A stretch of DNA of 64,000 nt from Escherichia coli (lineage in GTDB: Bacteria; Pseudomonadota; Gammaproteobacteria; Enterobacterales; Enterobacteriaceae): assembly GCF_003334815.1 (NCBI RefSeq), contig NZ_QOWO01000012.1. The stretch is one strand, 5' to 3'. Shown here in pieces: positions 35,448-42,477 of this stretch. The position numbers were made by a program, and so were the translations under genes. A model generated the notes under the pieces. That model was not told where the DNA came from and did not search any database. It was given only the letters and a program-made list of their open reading frames with translations. Position 1 is the stretch's first letter, and every line of letters starts with the position of its first letter.

Positions 35448-37484
35448 ATGGATACGCCACGTCCACAGTTATTAGATTTTCAATTTCATCAGAATAACGA
35501 CAGTTTTACCCTACATTTTCAACAACGTCTTATTTTAACCCATAGCAAAGATAATCCTTGTTTATGGATTGGCTCAGGTATAGCGGATATCGATATGTTC
35601 CGCGGTAATTTCAGCATTAAAGATAAACTACAGGAGAAAATTGCGCTTACCGACGCCATCGTCAGCCAGTCACCGGATGGTTGGTTAATTCATTTCAGCC
35701 GTGGTTCTGACATTAGCGCCACGCTGAATATCTCTGCCGACGATCAGGGGCGTTTATTGCTGGAACTACAAAACGACAACCTTAACCACAACCGTATCTG
35801 GCTGCGCCTTGCCGCTCAACCAGAGGACCATATCTACGGCTGCGGCGAACAGTTTTCCTACTTCGATCTGCGTGGCAAACCGTTCCCGCTATGGACCAGT
35901 GAACAAGGCGTTGGTCGCAACAAACAAACCTATGTCACCTGGCAGGCCGACTGCAAAGAAAATGCGGGCGGCGACTATTACTGGACTTTCTTCCCACAGC
36001 CTACGTTTGTCAGCACGCAGAAGTATTACTGCCATGTTGATAACAGTTGCTATATGAACTTCGACTTTAGTGCCCCGGAATACCATGAACTGGCGCTGTG
36101 GGAAGACAAAGCAACGCTGCGTTTTGAATGTGCTGACACATACATTTCCCTGCTGGAAAAATTAACCGCCCTGCTGGGACGCCAGCCAGAACTGCCCGAC
36201 TGGATTTATGACGGAGTAACGCTCGGCATTCAGGGCGGGACGGAAGTGTGCCAGAAGAAACTGGACACCATGCGTAACGCGGGCGTGAAGGTCAACGGCA
36301 TCTGGGCGCAGGACTGGTCCGGTATTCGTATGACCTCTTTTGGCAAACGCGTGATGTGGAACTGGAAGTGGAACAGCGAAAACTACCCGCAACTGGATTC
36401 ACGCATTAAGCAGTGGAATCAGGAGGGCGTGCAGTTCCTGGCCTATATCAACCCGTATGTTGCCAGCGATAAAGATCTCTGCGAAGAAGCGGCACAACAC
36501 GGCTATCTGGCAAAAGATGCCTCTGGCGGTGACTATCTGGTGGAGTTTGGCGAGTTTTACGGCGGCGTTGTCGATCTCACTAATCCAGAAGCCTACGCCT
36601 GGTTCAAGGAAGTGATCAAAAAGAACATGATTGAACTCGGCTGCGGCGGCTGGATGGCTGACTTCGGCGAGTATCTGCCCACCGACACGTACCTGCATAA
36701 CGGCGTCAGTGCCGAAATTATGCATAACGCCTGGCCTGCGCTGTGGGCGAAGTGTAACTACGAAGCCCTTGAAGAAACGGGCAAGCTCGGCGAGATCCTT
36801 TTCTTTATGCGCGCCGGTTCTACCGGTAGCCAGAAATACTCCACCATGATGTGGGCGGGCGACCAGAACGTCGACTGGAGTCTCGACGATGGCCTGGCGT
36901 CGGTTGTCCCGGCGGCGCTGTCGCTGGCAATGACCGGACATGGCCTGCACCACAGCGACATTGGCGGTTACACCACCCTGTTTGAGATGAAGCGCAGCAA
37001 AGAGCTGCTGCTGCGCTGGTGCGATTTCAGCGCCTTCACGCCGATGATGCGCACCCACGAAGGTAACCGTCCTGGCGACAACTGGCAGTTTGACGGCGAC
37101 GCAGAAACCATCGCCCATTTCGCCCGTATGACCACCGTCTTCACCACCCTGAAACCTTACCTGAAAGAGGCCGTCGCGCTGAATGCGAAGTCCGGCCTGC
37201 CGGTTATGCGCCCGCTGTTCCTGCATTACGAAGACGATGCGCACACTTACACCCTGAAATATCAGTACCTGTTAGGTCGCGACATTCTGGTCGCTCCGGT
37301 GCATGAAGAAGGCCGTAGCGACTGGACGCTCTATCTGCCGGAGGATAACTGGGTCCACGCCTGGACGGGTGAAGCGTTCCGGGGCGGGGAAGTTACCGTT
37401 AATGCGCCCATCGGCAAGCCGCCGGTCTTTTATCGCGCCGATAGCGAATGGGCGGCACTGTTCGCGTCGTTAAAAAGCATCTAA
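35448..37484 (+). CDS. yihQ: Sulfoquinovosidase YihQ (glycoside hydrolase family 31)
   Basis: 678-aa ORF with GH31-type catalytic region (WAQDWSG...WMADFGEY); recognised as YihQ. Confidence 0.92.
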   Translation: MDTPRPQLLDFQFHQNNDSFTLHFQQRLILTHSKDNPCLWIGSGIADIDMFRGNFSIKDKLQEKIALTDAIVSQSPDGWLIHFSRGSDISATLNISADDQGRLLLELQNDNLNHNRIWLRLAAQPEDHIYGCGEQFSYFDLRGKPFPLWTSEQGVGRNKQTYVTWQADCKENAGGDYYWTFFPQPTFVSTQKYYCHVDNSCYMNFDFSAPEYHELALWEDKATLRFECADTYISLLEKLTALLGRQPELPDWIYDGVTLGIQGGTEVCQKKLDTMRNAGVKVNGIWAQDWSGIRMTSFGKRVMWNWKWNSENYPQLDSRIKQWNQEGVQFLAYINPYVASDKDLCEEAAQHGYLAKDASGGDYLVEFGEFYGGVVDLTNPEAYAWFKEVIKKNMIELGCGGWMADFGEYLPTDTYLHNGVSAEIMHNAWPALWAKCNYEALEETGKLGEILFFMRAGSTGSQKYSTMMWAGDQNVDWSLDDGLASVVPAALSLAMTGHGLHHSDIGGYTTLFEMKRSKELLLRWCDFSAFTPMMRTHEGNRPGDNWQFDGDAETIAHFARMTTVFTTLKPYLKEAVALNAKSGLPVMRPLFLHYEDDAHTYTLKYQYLLGRDILVAPVHEEGRSDWTLYLPEDNWVHAWTGEAFRGGEVTVNAPIGKPPVFYRADSEWAALFASLKSI

Positions 37485-37529
37485 TCACATCCGCCCGTGG
37501 GGAAACTCATGGGCAAAGGGAGAACATCG

Positions 37530-38915
37530 ATGAGTCACATCACAACGGAAGATCCAGCAACTTTACGCCTGCCCTTTAAAGAGAAACTCTCTTACGGTAT
37601 TGGCGACCTGGCCTCTAACATCCTGCTGGATATCGGTACGCTTTATCTTTTGAAGTTTTATACCGACGTTCTGGGGCTGCCAGGCACCTATGGCGGCATT
37701 ATCTTTTTGATTTCAAAATTCTTTACTGCGTTTACCGATATGGGTACCGGCATTATGTTGGATTCCCGACGCAAGATCGGTCCAAAAGGTAAGTTCCGTC
37801 CTTTTATTCTGTATGCGTCATTCCCGGTCACCTTACTGGCGATCGCCAACTTTGTCGGCACACCGTTTGATGTCACCGGTAAAACGGTGATGGCCACTAT
37901 TCTGTTTATGCTTTACGGACTGTTTTTCAGCATGATGAACTGCTCCTACGGCGCAATGGTTCCCGCTATCACCAAAAACCCCAACGAACGCGCCTCACTG
38001 GCGGCATGGCGTCAGGGCGGCGCTACGCTGGGCCTGCTGCTGTGCACGGTGGGATTCGTGCCAGTTATGAATCTTATCGAAGGTAATCAGCAACTTGGCT
38101 ATATCTTCGCCGCCACGCTGTTTTCACTGTTTGGCCTGCTGTTTATGTGGATCTGCTACTCGGGCGTGAAAGAGCGTTATGTCGAAACCCAGCCTGCTAA
38201 TCCGGCGCAAAAGCCGGGCCTGCTGCAATCTTTCCGCGCAATTGCGGGTAACCGCCCGCTGTTCATTCTGTGCATTGCCAACCTCTGCACTTTAGGGGCG
38301 TTTAACGTCAAGCTCGCCATCCAGGTCTATTACACCCAGTACGTGCTTAACGATCCCATCCTGTTGTCGTATATGGGATTTTTCAGCATGGGCTGTATTT
38401 TCATCGGCGTATTCCTGATGCCTGCCTCAGTCAGACGTTTTGGCAAGAAGAAAGTTTATATCGGCGGCCTGCTGATTTGGGTGCTGGGCGATCTGCTCAA
38501 CTATTTCTTCGGCGGCGGTTCGGTCAGCTTCGTGGCGTTCTCCTGCCTGGCGTTCTTTGGCTCAGCGTTTGTTAACAGCCTGAACTGGGCGCTGGTTTCC
38601 GACACCGTCGAGTACGGCGAGTGGCGCACCGGCGTGCGTTCGGAAGGAACGGTCTACACCGGTTTTACCTTCTTTCGCAAAGTGTCTCAGGCGCTGGCTG
38701 GTTTCTTCCCCGGCTGGATGCTGACGCAAATTGGCTATGTGCCGAACGTCGCACAGGCTGACCACACCATTGAAGGGTTACGCCAGTTGATCTTCATCTA
38801 CCCAAGCGCACTGGCGGTAGTCACCATTGTGGCGATGGGTTGCTTCTACAGCCTGAACGAGAAGATGTATGTCCGCATTGTGGAAGAGATAGAAGCCCGT
38901 AAACGCACGGCGTAA
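37530..38915 (+). CDS. yihP: GPH-family sugar:cation symporter YihP
   Basis: ORF 37497..38915; ATG at 37530 (MSHITTEDPATLRL...) with AAAGGGAGA SD gives 461 aa; start choice is moderately certain. Confidence 0.85.
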   Translation: MSHITTEDPATLRLPFKEKLSYGIGDLASNILLDIGTLYLLKFYTDVLGLPGTYGGIIFLISKFFTAFTDMGTGIMLDSRRKIGPKGKFRPFILYASFPVTLLAIANFVGTPFDVTGKTVMATILFMLYGLFFSMMNCSYGAMVPAITKNPNERASLAAWRQGGATLGLLLCTVGFVPVMNLIEGNQQLGYIFAATLFSLFGLLFMWICYSGVKERYVETQPANPAQKPGLLQSFRAIAGNRPLFILCIANLCTLGAFNVKLAIQVYYTQYVLNDPILLSYMGFFSMGCIFIGVFLMPASVRRFGKKKVYIGGLLIWVLGDLLNYFFGGGSVSFVAFSCLAFFGSAFVNSLNWALVSDTVEYGEWRTGVRSEGTVYTGFTFFRKVSQALAGFFPGWMLTQIGYVPNVAQADHTIEGLRQLIFIYPSALAVVTIVAMGCFYSLNEKMYVRIVEEIEARKRTA

Positions 38916-38957
38916 TAATAATAAACGACGCCCTGCGGGGCGTTATAAGGAGTGATT

Positions 38958-40361
38958 ATGTCTGACCATAATCCACTGACATTAAAACTGAATCTGCGGG
39001 AAAAAATCGCCTATGGTATGGGCGACGTCGGTTCGAATTTAATGCTCTGCATCGGTACTCTGTATCTCCTCAAATTTTATACCGATGAATTAGGGATGCC
39101 TGCTTACTATGGCGGGATTATCTTTCTGGTGGCGAAGTTTTTTACCGCGTTTACCGATATGCTCACCGGATTTTTACTCGACTCGCGGAAAAATATTGGG
39201 CCTAAAGGCAAATTTCGTCCCTTTATTTTATATGCAGCGGTTCCGGCGGCGTTAATTGCAACGCTCCAGTTTATCGCCACCACCTTTTGTTTGCCGGTTA
39301 AAACGACGATTGCCACCGCGCTGTTTATGATGTTTGGACTTTCATACAGTCTGATGAACTGCTCGTATGGTGCGATGATCCCGGCAATTACCAAAAACCC
39401 GAATGAGCGCGCGCAGCTCGCGGCTTACCGCCAGGGTGGTGCAACCATAGGGCTATTGATTTGTACCGTGGCGTTTATTCCGTTGCAGTCGCTTTTTTCT
39501 GACTCAACCGTCGGTTATGCCTGTGCGGCACTTATGTTCTCCATTGGCGGCTTTATTTTTATGATGCTGTGCTACAGAGGCGTCAAAGAGCATTATGTGG
39601 ACACAACGCCAACCGGACATAAAGCCAGTATTCTCAAATCATTTTGCGCGATATTTCGGAATCCGCCATTGCTGGTTTTATGCATTGCTAACTTGTGTAC
39701 CCTGGCGGCATTTAATATCAAACTGGCGATTCAGGTCTATTACACCCAGTATGTGCTGAATGATATTAATTTATTGTCGTGGATGGGATTCTTCAGTATG
39801 GGATGCATCCTCATCGGCGTATTACTGGTGCCATTAACTGTAAAATGTTTTGGTAAAAAACAGGTTTATCTGGCTGGCATGGTGCTGTGGGCGGTGGGTG
39901 ATATACTGAATTATTTCTGGGGAAGTAACTCTTTCACTTTCGTCATGTTCTCTTGTGTCGCCTTTTTTGGCACGGCCTTTGTAAACAGCCTGAACTGGGC
40001 ACTGGTACCAGATACCGTAGATTACGGTGAATGGAAAACCGGTATTCGTGCCGAAGGTTCTGTTTATACCGGTTATACCTTCTTTCGTAAAATTTCTGCC
40101 GCACTTGCTGGCTTCTTGCCAGGCATTATGCTGACGCAAATTGGTTATGTTCCCAACATCGCGCAAAGCGATGCGACATTACAGGGTTTGCGTCAGCTCA
40201 TTTTTATCTGGCCTTGTGCACTGGCAATTATTGCTGCATTGACGATGGGATTCTTTTACACACTCAATGAAAAACGGTTTGCATTGATTATTGAGGAAAT
40301 CAACCAACGCAAAAATAAAGAGATGGCGACAGAAGAAAAAACGGCTTCCGTAACGTTATAA
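38958..40361 (+). CDS. yihO: GPH-family transporter YihO (sulfoquinovose / sulfoquinovosyl-glycerol uptake)
   Basis: ORF 38952..40361; ATG at 38958 (MSDHNPLTLKLN...) with AAGGAG SD; 467 aa; close paralog of the adjacent yihP product. Confidence 0.85.
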   Translation: MSDHNPLTLKLNLREKIAYGMGDVGSNLMLCIGTLYLLKFYTDELGMPAYYGGIIFLVAKFFTAFTDMLTGFLLDSRKNIGPKGKFRPFILYAAVPAALIATLQFIATTFCLPVKTTIATALFMMFGLSYSLMNCSYGAMIPAITKNPNERAQLAAYRQGGATIGLLICTVAFIPLQSLFSDSTVGYACAALMFSIGGFIFMMLCYRGVKEHYVDTTPTGHKASILKSFCAIFRNPPLLVLCIANLCTLAAFNIKLAIQVYYTQYVLNDINLLSWMGFFSMGCILIGVLLVPLTVKCFGKKQVYLAGMVLWAVGDILNYFWGSNSFTFVMFSCVAFFGTAFVNSLNWALVPDTVDYGEWKTGIRAEGSVYTGYTFFRKISAALAGFLPGIMLTQIGYVPNIAQSDATLQGLRQLIFIWPCALAIIAALTMGFFYTLNEKRFALIIEEINQRKNKEMATEEKTASVTL

Positions 40362-40428
40362 ATGTCAATAGCCGCTATTTCCATCCTGGTGGGTGGCGGC
40401 CTCCCTACGTTTAAAAAATGGACTTATT

Positions 40429-41121
40429 ATGAAAAAGATTAATGCAATAATTTTATTATCTTCTCTGACCTCTGCCTCGGTATTTGCTGGCGCATACGTC
40501 GAAAACAGGGAGGCATATAATCTTGCCTCCGATCAGGGCGAGGTTATGCTACGTGTGGGTTATAACTTCGATATGGGCGCGGGTATTATGTTAACCAATA
40601 CCTACAACTTTCAGCGAGAAGATGAACTAAAACATGGATATAACGAAATTGAAGGCTGGTATCCGTTATTTAAACCAACCGATAAATTAACCATCCAGCC
40701 CGGTGGCTTAATTAATGATAAGAGTATCGGTTCGGGTGGTGCAGTGTATCTGGACGTCAACTATAAATTTGTACCATGGTTTAATCTGACAGTACGAAAT
40801 CGCTATAACCATAATAACTATAGTTCAACAGATTTGAGCGGGGAACTGGATAATAATGACACCTATGAAATTGGCACCTACTGGAATTTTAAAATCACCG
40901 ATAAATTTTCCTATACATTTGAGCCACATTACTTCATGCGAGTGAATGACTTTAATAGTAGCAACGGGAAAGATCATCATTGGGAAATCACTAACACCTT
41001 CCGTTACCGTATTAATGAACACTGGCTCCCTTATTTCGAATTGCGCTGGTTAGACCGCAACGTCGAACCGTACCACCGCGAGCAAAACCAGATCCGTATC
41101 GGGACGAAGTATTTCTTCTGA
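40429..41121 (+). CDS. ompL: Outer-membrane porin OmpL
   Basis: ORF 40393..41121; ATG at 40429 (MKKINAIILLSSLTSASVFA...) gives 230 aa with signal peptide and a C-terminal aromatic residue (…GTKYFF). Confidence 0.85.
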   Translation: MKKINAIILLSSLTSASVFAGAYVENREAYNLASDQGEVMLRVGYNFDMGAGIMLTNTYNFQREDELKHGYNEIEGWYPLFKPTDKLTIQPGGLINDKSIGSGGAVYLDVNYKFVPWFNLTVRNRYNHNNYSSTDLSGELDNNDTYEIGTYWNFKITDKFSYTFEPHYFMRVNDFNSSNGKDHHWEITNTFRYRINEHWLPYFELRWLDRNVEPYHREQNQIRIGTKYFF

Positions 41122-41130
41122 TGTGAAACT

Positions 41131-41207
<77 letters not shown>

Positions 41208-41211
41208 TTAA

Positions 41212-42477
41212 TTAAGCTTCAGCCGCCAGCATCTCTTTCTTACGTTGGCTAATACGCTTAACCAGCATTACGGAAACCACCGCACCACTGAATGCGAAGC
41301 AGGCCATAATGCCAAACACGATTTTGTAGCCAATAATCCCCGGATTTAAATCCAGAATGTAGCCATACAGACTGAAGCAGAACATCGCCGGAGCGTAACC
41401 AATAAAGCTACCCAACGCCATCGCCGCACCTGTTTTATTTTCAGCAATTTTTGCTTCGCCGATAGGTGCAAAAAATACGGCTCGCTGTGTAAAGACTATC
41501 GCGCCAAAGCCCAGCGTACATGCCATCCCTAAATAGACCGGCATACTTTCGTGCGGCAGCATAATCAACAGTACGAGCGCAGCGGTACTAATGATAAAGG
41601 TGTAGCATAGATATTTACTTGGCGATTTCAGGATCTTATCTGAAATCATGCCACCAATCGGTCCACCAATCATTTTCAGACAGTATTGGTTAATGATGCC
41701 GTAAGCCCCCACCAGCGCAACGGGCAATAGATAGATGTTTTTCAGGAATGGAATGAAGAATGTCAGGCCACAGTAAACCGCGTAAACGAAGAAGACGTTA
41801 AAAGCGATAAGCCAGATAGTTTTGTCTTTCAGCACCGAGGTCATACTGGTGTTTTTCGATGCTCCGTCTTCTTTTTTCACCTCAACGGACGGTGCCTCTT
41901 CTTTGTCATTCAGGACAAAGAAAATAATAATGCCTACGGCAATCACAATAAGGGAATAGAACCAGATGCCTGCTTTAAAACCTAATAAGCCACTGCCAAA
42001 CCAGGTAAATACTGCCAACGCAGAAAATGCCACCACGGTATCGACAATGCCACGCCCTGTTTCGAAGAAGCCAAACAACCGACCTTGTTGTTCGCTATTG
42101 CCCAATCGACTTACCGACTTGAGCAAGACCGGCCAGTTCATCATGTCGCAAGTAACGCCAAATAGCGCCCAGACAAAGAGGATGCCCCAATACCCCGGCA
42201 TTGTCGTCAAATAAACACCCAGTAATCCTGTCGCAATGAGTGAGAATGACATGGTGTATCTGCGCGGTAGTTTATCGGCAAAATAAATAGACAGAAAAAA
42301 GCCCACTGTGGTGACAAATGAGTTTACCGACATAGCATTACCAATTTGACCATTGGTCAAATGGAAATATTCCTGCATCGGGATATAAAACGCATCTTTC
42401 AGCGACGGTAATTTATAAATTGTACCGCCACACAGTGTTAATAGACTAAATAACGCCCATTTCTTTTTCGTGAGCAT
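41212..42477 (-). CDS. yihN: MFS transporter YihN
   Basis: 421-aa 12-helix-type hydrophobic ORF recognised as YihN. Confidence 0.85.
   Translation of the reverse strand: MLTKKKWALFSLLTLCGGTIYKLPSLKDAFYIPMQEYFHLTNGQIGNAMSVNSFVTTVGFFLSIYFADKLPRRYTMSFSLIATGLLGVYLTTMPGYWGILFVWALFGVTCDMMNWPVLLKSVSRLGNSEQQGRLFGFFETGRGIVDTVVAFSALAVFTWFGSGLLGFKAGIWFYSLIVIAVGIIIFFVLNDKEEAPSVEVKKEDGASKNTSMTSVLKDKTIWLIAFNVFFVYAVYCGLTFFIPFLKNIYLLPVALVGAYGIINQYCLKMIGGPIGGMISDKILKSPSKYLCYTFIISTAALVLLIMLPHESMPVYLGMACTLGFGAIVFTQRAVFFAPIGEAKIAENKTGAAMALGSFIGYAPAMFCFSLYGYILDLNPGIIGYKIVFGIMACFAFSGAVVSVMLVKRISQRKKEMLAAEA

What the first reader, a model, noticed from the sequence alone, without database searches (positions are those of the whole stretch)
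37530..40361. yihP and yihO are tandem duplicate GPH transporters
The two adjacent transporters share long near-identical blocks (e.g. GGIIFL..KFFTAFTDM.TG..LDSR..IGPKGKFRPFILYA and NCSYGAM.PAITKNPNERA.LAA.RQGGAT). The six-frame track even shows homologous antisense ORFs inside both (37688..37897 and 39107..39394), indicating nucleotide-level similarity. Tandem paralogs in a catabolic island suggest substrate specialisation, for example free sulfoquinovose versus sulfoquinovosyl glycerol, or importer versus product exporter.
Basis: seen in the sequence. Interest (0 to 1): 0.3.

Follow-up and report, generated by a model that had tools for sequence, protein, structure and literature searches.

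The report
Known, ancient yihP–yihO transporter gene pair
The two neighbouring genes are the already described E. coli sulfoquinovose-pathway transporters YihP and YihO: a real but very old tandem duplication whose published division of labour (sugar in, sulfonate waste out) has still not been tested.

Summary
Window 37530-38915 (yihP) and 38958-40361 (yihO) encode GPH-family transporters that are 65% identical in protein and in DNA, against 25-38% for other GPH members. The window is E. coli, in the sulfo-EMP (yih) cluster.

The pair is already known. The 65% identity and the "YihO imports sulfoquinovose, YihP may export DHPS" idea are both published. Only the yihO knockout phenotype is experimental.

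What the tools add:
- The duplication is ancient. Synonymous sites are saturated, and the order yihQ-yihP-yihO-ompL holds in 60 genomes across Enterobacterales and in one Anaerobiospirillum MAG, with no gene conversion.
- Both copies are under strong purifying selection.
- Both share a pocket without MelB's two sugar-binding Asp residues and with an invariant Arg-Lys pair.
- Residues fixed differently in the two copies concentrate in helix XI.
- A TauE/SafE putative sulfonate exporter sits in 17 of 72 clusters and in about a third of long-cassette E. coli, though not in this window. It usually coexists with yihP and twice stands where yihP is missing. The exporter role of YihP therefore stays unproven.

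Verdict: ordinary, already known, low interest.

The parts
37530..38915 (+). yihP coding sequence (461 aa from ATG 37530; an in-frame GTG at 37497 would add 11 codons). GPH-family transporter, proposed DHPS exporter.
   Evidence: ORF. Annotated yihP in E. coli genomes at 100% identity. TIGR00792 537 bits. Orthologues start about 45 bp after the yihQ stop, which fits the ATG start.
38958..40361 (+). yihO coding sequence (467 aa). GPH-family transporter, sulfoquinovose importer.
   Evidence: ORF. Annotated yihO. TIGR00792 529 bits. AlphaFold model pLDDT 85.8, TM-score 0.86-0.88 to MelB structures. The yihO deletion mutant does not grow on SQ (Denger 2014, as cited in PMC6278857).
38916..38957 (+). 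42-bp yihP-yihO spacer: run of TAA triplets, GC hairpin at 38928-38943 (ACGCCC-TGCG-GGGCGT), Shine-Dalgarno AAGGAG at 38947-38952, then ATG at 38958.
   Evidence: Sequence read. The hairpin was listed by the scan, on the - strand only. No promoter-like site lies on the + strand in the spacer, which is consistent with co-transcription. The function of the hairpin was not tested.
37688..37897 (-). Antisense ORF inside yihP (69 aa). A by-product, not a gene.
   Evidence: open over the whole stretch in 37/62 orthologues.
39107..39394 (-). Antisense ORF inside yihO (95 aa). A by-product, not a gene.
   Evidence: open in 1/64 orthologues.
35448..37484 (+). yihQ (sulfoquinovosidase), always immediately upstream of yihP.
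40393..41121 (+). ompL (porin), downstream of yihO; last gene of the yihU-to-ompL run.
35241..35391 (.). AT-rich stretch of about 150 bp between yihR and yihQ. It occupies the place where 1296 other E. coli genomes carry a TauE/SafE gene.

Best explanation
SHOWN.
- yihP and yihO are tandem paralogues of the GPH (MFS_2) family inside the E. coli sulfo-EMP (yih) cluster.
- They descend from one duplication that predates the spread of this cluster through Enterobacterales.
- Both have been kept under strong purifying selection, in the same order, without gene conversion.
- Both have the MelB fold but a remodelled pocket. MelB's Lys18, Asp19, Asp124, Trp128 and Arg149 are replaced by Ser, Asn, Asn, Gly and Gln. 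An invariant Arg-Lys pair sits at MelB positions 376-377, next to where the sugar C6 lies in MelB. The coupling Asp59 is kept and Asp55 is lost.

INFERRED.
- Both proteins bind a sulfonate through the Arg-Lys site. C6 of sulfoquinovose carries the sulfonate, and DHPS is the C4-C6 fragment of sulfoquinovose.
- The two differ in the rest of the pocket, mainly on helix XI and at Tyr130/Phe133 and Tyr373/Phe379.
- Division of labour: YihO takes up sulfoquinovose (knockout evidence from the literature). YihP performs a different, non-redundant sulfonate transport step, most likely release of DHPS, probably as proton symport running outward.

I put the exporter assignment itself at about 0.45. The rest of the statement is near certain.
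For: Paralogy and age:
- 65% identity.
- pS 0.76, i.e. saturated; dN 0.26.
- The O+P clade has 100% bootstrap support against all outgroups.
- The order yihQ-yihP-yihO-ompL recurs in 60 genomes. Within-genome O-P identity is 58-71%, median 68%.

Selection:
- dN/dS is 0.02-0.04 within Escherichia for both genes.
- dN/dS is 0.03-0.11 in TauE-bearing lineages.

Fold: pLDDT 85.8; TM-score 0.86-0.88 to MelB 7L16/9OLI/8FQ9.

Pocket:
- The mapping is invariant across 66 O and 66 P sequences.
- MelB residue roles are taken from PMC8329300.
- The Arg-Lys pair is shared with relatives found in uronate/glucuronide clusters, which fits anion binding.

Divergence:
- 18 of 457 columns are fixed differently in the two clades.
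- 5 of these lie in helix XI (hypergeometric p = 0.0035).
- 3-4 lie at MelB pocket positions (Fisher p = 0.04 and 0.008).

Roles:
- The yihO knockout does not grow on SQ.
- Both genes are induced by SQ.
- The nearest outgroup, P0121, is the only GPH in a Firmicute sulfo-TAL cluster, where it is the predicted SQ importer SftA beside a separate exporter.
- In Chimaeribacter the yihO slot holds an SftA-like GPH while yihP is kept.
- In Lelliottia L047 and Enterobacter MAG L070, yihP is absent and a TauE/SafE gene (PF01925, E = 2.6e-34) lies between yihQ and yihO.
Against: - No transport assay exists for either protein. EcoCyc 2016 says neither the importer nor the exporter is firmly established.
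- Characterised GPH members are uptake symporters (own knowledge).
- 15 of 17 TauE-bearing clusters, and about 1296 E. coli genomes, keep yihP together with TauE, with all three genes under purifying selection. This would be odd if YihP and TauE did the same job.
- The link between yihP loss and TauE presence is not significant: 2/17 against 1/53, Fisher p = 0.14.
- The polarity of the fixed differences is ambiguous. The nearest outgroups share more states with P; distant ones share more with O.
- The relative-rate test is not significant: 37 against 29 unique changes, p = 0.32.
- yihP always travels with yihQ and ompL, the uptake side of the cluster.
Confidence: 0.5

Rival explanations
1. Two importers. 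YihO takes up free sulfoquinovose and YihP takes up sulfoquinovosyl glycerol or other SQ glycosides, the substrates of cytoplasmic YihQ. DHPS leaves by another route: TauE/SafE where the cluster has one, and an unlinked exporter in K-12.
For: - GPH members are typically glycoside uptake symporters (own knowledge).
- yihP is always adjacent to yihQ, inside the module yihQ-yihP-yihO-ompL. That module is kept even where the enzyme genes yihT/R/S are replaced by non-homologous ones.
- TauE, YihP and YihO coexist in 15 clusters and in about a third of long-cassette E. coli. Each is under purifying selection, which fits three distinct transport jobs.
- TauE-type proteins are the usual predicted C3-sulfonate exporters in SQ clusters.
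- The yihO deletion phenotype on free SQ is equally compatible with this reading.
Against: - Where yihP is missing (L047, L070), yihQ and yihO remain intact, so YihO would then have to carry the glycoside as well.
- The single GPH of sulfo-TAL clusters sits next to a GH31 sulfoquinovosidase and is presumed to serve both substrates.
- K-12 has no other exporter candidate in the cluster, yet the literature reports that it excretes DHPS.
Confidence: 0.33
2. Precursor/product exchange. One or both proteins exchange external sulfoquinovose for internal DHPS, both being monoanions. This would resemble the lactose/galactose exchange of the GPH member LacS. The two copies would differ in mode or affinity rather than in direction.
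For: - DHPS corresponds to the C4-C6 sulfonate end of SQ (pathway chemistry).
- Both proteins share an identical sulfonate-side pocket.
- Exchange by LacS is known (own knowledge).
Against: - There is no direct evidence.
- Both keep the Asp59-equivalent coupling residue, which fits symport.
- The idea does not explain why two copies are kept for so long.
Confidence: 0.1
3. Redundant duplicates kept for dosage, with the same substrate and direction.
For: Very similar pockets; both induced by SQ.
Against: - The yihO deletion mutant alone fails to grow on SQ.
- The yihO and yihP deletions differ in an antibiotic-resistance phenotype.
- 18 positions are fixed differently and are enriched in helix XI.
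- The pair has persisted since before Enterobacterales diversified, without gene conversion.
- Inter-genus dN is about 2.4-fold lower for P than for O.
Confidence: 0.04
4. The similarity is only the general family resemblance of two unrelated GPH genes that happen to be neighbours.
For: None beyond shared family membership.
Against: 65% identity against 25-39% for other GPH members and 50-52% for the nearest outgroup. The O+P clade has 100% bootstrap support.
Confidence: 0.01

Closest known systems
E. coli K-12 YihO (b3876) and YihP (b3877) of the sulfo-EMP cluster (Denger et al. 2014)
   Same: They are the same genes. The region is 100% identical in DNA to many E. coli genomes annotated yihP, yihO, yihQ and ompL, with the same synteny from yihW to yihN.
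   Different: Nothing differs. This window carries the K-12-type cassette without the TauE/SafE gene that 1296 other E. coli genomes have between yihR and yihQ.
MelB, melibiose:Na+/H+ symporter (GPH prototype; PDB 7L16, 7L17, 8FQ9)
   Same: Same fold (TM-score 0.86-0.88) and 12 helices. The Asp59, Thr373 and Lys377 equivalents are conserved.
   Different: Only 25-27% identical and below the MelB equivalog cut-off (215-220 against 456 bits). The sugar-binding Lys18, Asp19, Asp124, Trp128, Arg149 and Trp342 are all replaced, Val376 becomes Arg, and the cation-site Asp55 and Asn58 become Thr.
SftA, the single GPH symporter of Firmicute sulfo-TAL clusters (Bacillus aryabhattai SOS1; Frommeyer et al. 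2020)
   Same: It is the nearest outgroup (P0121, 50-52% identity). It lies in an SQ cluster next to a GH31 sulfoquinovosidase and shares the pocket signature, including Arg-Lys.
   Different: It is a single copy paired with an exporter from a different family, and it keeps Asp55.
GusB/UidB-type glucuronide transporters
   Same: This is the second-best NCBIfam model (289-295 bits). Relatives such as P0124 lie in uronate/beta-glucuronidase clusters and share the Arg-Lys pair. Both groups carry anionic sugars.
   Different: Below the equivalog cut-off of 528 bits, 37-39% identity, and a different genomic context.
TauE/SafE (TSUP) putative sulfonate/sulfite exporters
   Same: They may perform the job assigned to YihP. 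One occupies the yihP position in L047 and L070.
   Different: An unrelated family (PF01925, about 290 aa). It usually coexists with YihP.

Membership tests
GPH:cation symporter family (TC 2.A.2; TIGR00792; Pfam MFS_2 PF13347) | Score above the curated cut-off of the family model over its full length | tested here: met
   TIGR00792: YihP 537 bits and YihO 529 bits against a cut-off of 231.35, covering profile positions 1-437 of 437. Close homologues carry precomputed PF13347.
GPH:cation symporter family | MelB-like 12-helix MFS fold | tested here: met
   YihO model pLDDT 85.8 and pTM 0.81. The best PDB matches are MelB structures, TM-score 0.86-0.90, then MFSD2A. YihP was not modelled; it is 65% identical.
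GPH:cation symporter family | Carboxylates of the helix II cation site (MelB Asp55 and Asp59) | tested here: inconclusive
   The Asp59 equivalent is invariant (D67 in YihO, D70 in YihP). Asp55 and Asn58 are Thr in all 132 O and P sequences, while the outgroups keep Asp55. This suggests H+ rather than Na+ coupling, but that is inference.
GPH:cation symporter family | Cation-coupled substrate transport activity | not testable with these tools
   No assay was found in the literature searched.
YihO/YihP of the E. coli sulfo-EMP cluster | Sequence identity and synteny with the annotated genes | tested here: met
   100% DNA identity to annotated E. coli genomes; present in 3897 of 5426 genomes. The flanking order is yihW, yihV, yihU, yihT, yihS, yihR, yihQ, then ompL and yihN.
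Recent tandem duplicate (the reading implied by 'near-identical' and 'nucleotide-level similarity') | Low synonymous divergence, or paralogues of one genome clustering together | tested here: not met
   pS 0.76 (saturated) and third-position identity 40%. The O and P lineages separate across genera. Within-genome identity is 58-71% in 60 genomes.
MelB equivalog (NF007749) and glucuronide transporter equivalog (NF007353) | Score above the equivalog cut-off | tested here: not met
   MelB 215-220 against 456 bits; glucuronide transporter 289-295 against 528 bits.
DHPS exporter (the role assigned to YihP) | DHPS efflux that depends on the protein | not testable with these tools
   Comparative proxies are mixed. 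yihP is lost only where TauE is present or in a decaying symbiont genome, yet TauE and yihP coexist in 15 clusters. Fisher p = 0.14.

The most novel reading that the evidence does not exclude
YihP is not the DHPS exporter that reviews describe. It would instead be a second importer specialised for sulfoquinovosyl glycerol or other SQ glycosides. DHPS would leave through a TauE/SafE-type protein, which is encoded inside the cassette in about a third of long-cassette E. coli and in many other Enterobacterales, and by an unlinked exporter in K-12. That would correct the textbook sulfo-EMP scheme.
Probability: 0.33. Interest if true: 0.4.

Novelty: already known. Interest (0 to 1): 0.15.

Why it matters
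[quoted passage not shown] E. coli turns it into DHPS, which feeds sulfide-producing gut bacteria. Which proteins bring the sugar in and let DHPS out is still formally open: EcoCyc said so in 2016, and a 2026 review still cites YihP as the exporter without an assay.

The finding itself adds nothing to the literature. The comparative results here sharpen the experiment that is needed. They point to the helix XI residues and the two Tyr/Phe switches for swap mutants. They also show that natural cassettes with and without TauE/SafE exist within E. coli and can be compared.

Tried and rejected
1. I used orthologue comparisons instead.
2. Gene conversion or recent homogenisation: rejected. Within-genome identity is 58-71% everywhere, and the longest exact run is 20 bp.
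3. Antisense ORFs as genes: rejected.
4. Asymmetric evolution since the duplication: Tajima's relative-rate test is not significant for E. coli (37 against 29, p = 0.32). YihO does carry more unique changes in 57 of 60 genomes, and its inter-genus dN is about 2.4 times that of YihP.
5. Deciding which copy is derived: the outgroups disagree, so I make no claim of neofunctionalisation of either copy.
6. The base of the tree is weak. Bootstrap support is 59% for all P, 34% for enterobacterial O and 93% for core P. The Yersinia/Serratia P sequences and the Anaerobiospirillum O sequence are not placed securely. Only the O+P clade (100%) and the cross-genus separation are used.
7. Association of yihP loss with TauE: not significant.
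8. GC3 difference between yihP and yihO (0.66 against 0.50) as a sign of separate acquisition: a lower GC3 in yihO and ompL is seen in most genomes, so it is not specific evidence.
9. A solved structure of YihO or YihP: none exists; only MelB and MFSD2A are related.
10. Promoter and terminator scan of 37300-41300: promoter-like sites are at the chance level, and terminator-like sites (11 found against 5.0 expected) are mostly inside coding sequence. Nothing was built on this.
Full report
WHAT IS THERE

The window around the finding is the E. coli sulfo-EMP (yih) cluster, read on the strand opposite to the K-12 map:

| Gene | Coordinates | Strand |
|---|---|---|
| yihW | 29270-30079 | - |
| yihV | 30089-30991 | - |
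| yihU | 31153-32049 | + |
| yihT | 32073-32951 | + |
| yihS | 32953-34209 | + |
| yihR | 34323-35249 | + |
| yihQ | 35448-37484 | + |
| yihP | 37530-38915 | + |
| yihO | 38958-40361 | + |
| ompL | 40393-41121 | + |
| yihN | 41212-42477 | - |

A megablast of 37400-40450 finds the stretch in 3897 of 5426 complete E. coli genomes, many at 100% identity. It is annotated there as yihQ, yihP, yihO and ompL.

OBSERVATION CHECK

- The two proteins align over 456 residues with 65% identity, 81% positives and three gaps.
- Codon-aligned DNA is 65.1% identical. Identity is 71%, 84% and 40% at codon positions 1, 2 and 3. The proportion of synonymous differences is 0.76, which is saturation, and dN is 0.26. 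The longest exact nucleotide run is 20 bp.
- The nucleotide similarity is therefore real, but it is wholly a consequence of protein constraint.
- The two antisense ORFs exist and are homologous. They are not conserved as open frames in orthologues: 37/62 for yihP and 1/64 for yihO. They are by-products.
- Baseline for the family: MelB is 25-27% identical to either protein, other GPH relatives 31-39%, and the nearest outgroup 50-52%. The refutation criterion in the finding ('identity below that expected for general GPH members') is clearly not met.

FAMILY AND FOLD

- Both proteins score 529-537 bits on TIGR00792 (GPH:cation symporter, cut-off 231). Both are below the equivalog cut-offs for the glucuronide transporter, YagG and MelB.
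- An AlphaFold model of YihO built on 48 sequences has pLDDT 85.8 and 12 transmembrane helices plus a C-terminal helix.
- Its best solved-structure matches are MelB (TM-score 0.86-0.90) and then MFSD2A.
- No structure of YihO or YihP exists.

AGE AND STABILITY OF THE PAIR

One scan of species-representative genomes returned 72 loci.
- The order yihQ-yihP-yihO(-ompL) recurs in Escherichia, Citrobacter, Salmonella, Enterobacter, Klebsiella, Kosakonia, Pantoea, Mixta, Rahnella, Yersinia, Serratia, Hafnia, Budvicia, Limnobaculum and Pectobacterium. It also occurs in an Anaerobiospirillum MAG.
- In 60 genomes with both genes intact, the within-genome O-P identity is 58-71%, median 68%. There has been no homogenisation.
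- In a neighbour-joining tree rooted on MelB, O plus P form a clade with 100% bootstrap support. The core P clade, including Anaerobiospirillum, has 93%. The deepest branching inside the clade is poorly resolved.
- The duplication therefore predates the spread of this cluster in Enterobacterales.
- Both genes are under strong purifying selection: dN/dS is 0.02-0.04 within Escherichia.
- YihP orthologues are a median 90% identical to E. coli YihP, and YihO orthologues 77%. Inter-genus dN is about 0.055 for P against 0.134 for O.
- A relative-rate test against the outgroup is not significant. I therefore do not claim that either copy is the derived one, and the outgroup states are mixed as well.

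NEAREST RELATIVES

- A profile search of 1.84 billion representatives shows a sharp drop after the O/P group: 597 bits for P0121, then 376 bits and below.
- P0121 is the only GPH gene in a Firmicute cluster with the order GPH, transaldolase, DUF4867, GH31, isomerase, GntR, aldehyde dehydrogenase, membrane exporter. This is the sulfo-TAL cluster, in which that symporter is the predicted SQ importer SftA (PMC7491151).
- The next relative, P0124, sits among uronate and beta-glucuronidase genes.
- The O/P clade thus arose within transporters of anionic sugars.

POCKET

I mapped the MelB sugar and cation residues (from PMC8329300) onto 66 O and 66 P sequences. In both paralogues, invariantly:

| MelB residue | YihO/YihP |
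|---|---|
| Lys18 | Ser |
| Asp19 | Asn |
| Asp124 | Asn |
| Trp128 | Gly |
| Arg149 | Gln |
| Trp342 | Asn |
| Val376 | Arg |
| Lys377 | Lys |
| Asp55 | Thr |
| Asn58 | Thr |
| Asp59 | Asp |

- In MelB, Lys377 and Gln372 lie within 5 A of the sugar C6-OH. In sulfoquinovose, C6 carries the sulfonate.
- I infer that the Arg-Lys pair binds the sulfonate, and that loss of the two acidic sugar ligands avoids repelling it.
- The Arg-Lys pair is shared with the glucuronide-type outgroups, whereas Asp55-to-Thr is specific to O plus P.

DIFFERENCES BETWEEN THE COPIES

- Of 457 aligned columns, 252 are conserved and identical in both clades. 18 are conserved within each clade but differ between them.
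- Five of the 18 lie in helix XI (YihO 368, 373, 376, 381, 387; hypergeometric p = 0.0035).
- Three or four fall on MelB pocket positions:
  - Tyr130 in O, Phe133 in P, at MelB Tyr120.
  - Tyr373 in O, Phe379 in P, at MelB Gln372.
  - Thr339 in O, Ser345 in P, at MelB Thr338.
  - Phe126 in O, Tyr129 in P, at MelB Trp116.
- This is the signature of long-standing specialisation around a shared sulfonate site. It does not reveal the substrates.

WHAT THE LITERATURE ALREADY SAYS

- The scheme 'YihO imports SQ, YihP exports DHPS' goes back to Denger et al. 2014 and is repeated in PMC6278857, PMC8006165, PMC8873060 and PMC12890257.
- The yihO deletion mutant fails to grow on SQ.
- Both genes are induced more than 30-fold by SQ.
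- One preprint states the 65% identity explicitly and notes that YihP has not been characterised.
- EcoCyc wrote in 2016 that neither importer nor exporter is firmly established.
- In Salmonella, yihO, yihP and yihQ mutants were linked to O-antigen capsule and desiccation survival.
- The finding is therefore already known in both observation and interpretation.

COMPARATIVE EVIDENCE ON THE ROLES

1. In Lelliottia nimipressuralis (L047) and an Enterobacter MAG (L070), yihP is absent. A 292-aa TauE/SafE protein (PF01925, E = 2.6e-34) lies between yihQ and yihO.
2. The same TauE gene is present in 17 of 72 loci, and in 15 of them together with both yihP and yihO. It lies either between yihR and yihQ or between yihQ and yihP.
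3. Within E. coli, 1296 of 5426 genomes carry it between yihR and yihQ. In this window a stretch of about 150 bp of AT-rich DNA (35241-35391) stands in its place.
4. In TauE-bearing lineages yihP, yihO and tauE are all under purifying selection, with dN/dS of 0.02-0.11.
5. In Chimaeribacter the yihO position is filled by an SftA-like GPH (45-47% identical) while a yihP orthologue is kept.

Points 1 and 5 fit 'O is the importer, and P overlaps in function with an exporter'. Points 2 to 4 fit three separate jobs, that is, two importers plus TauE as exporter. The association of yihP loss with TauE is not significant (Fisher p = 0.14).

I keep the published reading as the most likely, at about 0.45 for the exporter step. 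The two-importer reading gets about 0.33, exchange about 0.1, and pure redundancy about 0.04.

VERDICT

This is a correct observation of a textbook gene pair. Novelty: already known. Interest: low. The side observations below may be of more use than the finding itself.

Noticed in passing
window 35241-35391; L082 9055-9930 (NZ_CP042899.1); L001 5504-6376: The E. coli yih cassette has a third structural form. 1296 of 5426 complete genomes carry a TauE/SafE family gene between yihR and yihQ, as a clean insertion/deletion difference of about 1 kb relative to this K-12-type window. The 2025 paper on long and short cassettes (PMC12608037) does not mention it.
   Followed up: partly
L045 9992-11422 (Candidatus Symbiopectobacterium endolongispinus), compared with L069: The single GPH gene here is a natural yihP-yihO hybrid. 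Roughly the first 135-150 residues are 95-100% identical to the yihP of a sister genome, and the rest is 88-100% identical to its yihO. The switch lies in or near the conserved NCSYGAM...RQGGAT block. This implies unequal recombination between the tandem paralogues. yihQ is fragmented in the same locus.
   Followed up: yes
L044 2913-6278; likewise L050-L052, L055, L056, L061, L063, L066, L067, L071: Clusters in Yersinia, Serratia, Hafnia and Chimaeribacter keep yihW, yihV, yihU, yihQ, yihP and yihO (with ompL in Yersinia, Hafnia and most Serratia loci). They replace yihT, yihR and yihS with a class II ketose-bisphosphate aldolase, a GalM-type mutarotase and an SftI-type sulfoquinovose isomerase. 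This is a hybrid of the two enzyme sets.
   Followed up: partly
window 32953-41121 compared with L002, L020, L054, L007, L014: The E. coli cassette looks mosaic. YihS is 95-96% identical to Citrobacter wls619 and Superficieibacter. YihP is only 84-86% identical to that group (and to UBA5654, L054) but 92-93% identical to Citrobacter, Klebsiella and Enterobacter. YihO is closest to UBA5654 and wls619 (83-89%). This suggests recombination breakpoints inside the cluster, including between yihP and yihO.
   Followed up: partly
window 38928-38943: There is a GC-rich hairpin (ACGCCC-TGCG-GGGCGT) in the 42-bp yihP-yihO spacer, just before the yihO Shine-Dalgarno sequence. It has no T-run on the + strand. 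It might affect relative expression of the two genes or mRNA stability.
   Followed up: no
window 34323-35249 (yihR): yihR is by far the most divergent gene of the cluster: 52-61% protein identity to most genera, against 70-71% for a few and 88% for E. whittamii. It also has the highest dN/dS within E. coli (0.17). The local G+C dips to 0.43 around 34500-36000.
   Followed up: no
NZ_AP027800.1 (hit H1); L004 10001-11422; L071 7841-12890: There are examples of decay. The annotation under the match in one E. coli genome lists an IS5 transposase and a split MFS transporter gene, apparently yihO. yihO is split into two ORFs in Salmonella enterica subsp. diarizonae. yihQ and yihO are split and yihP is shortened in Yersinia aldovae. 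The literature reports a yihP frameshift in Shigella flexneri.
   Followed up: no
window 37530-41121 and 60 related loci: Third-position G+C falls along the operon in most genomes, with yihP above yihO and yihO above ompL. The drop is largest in Escherichia (0.66-0.69, 0.50, 0.51).
   Followed up: no
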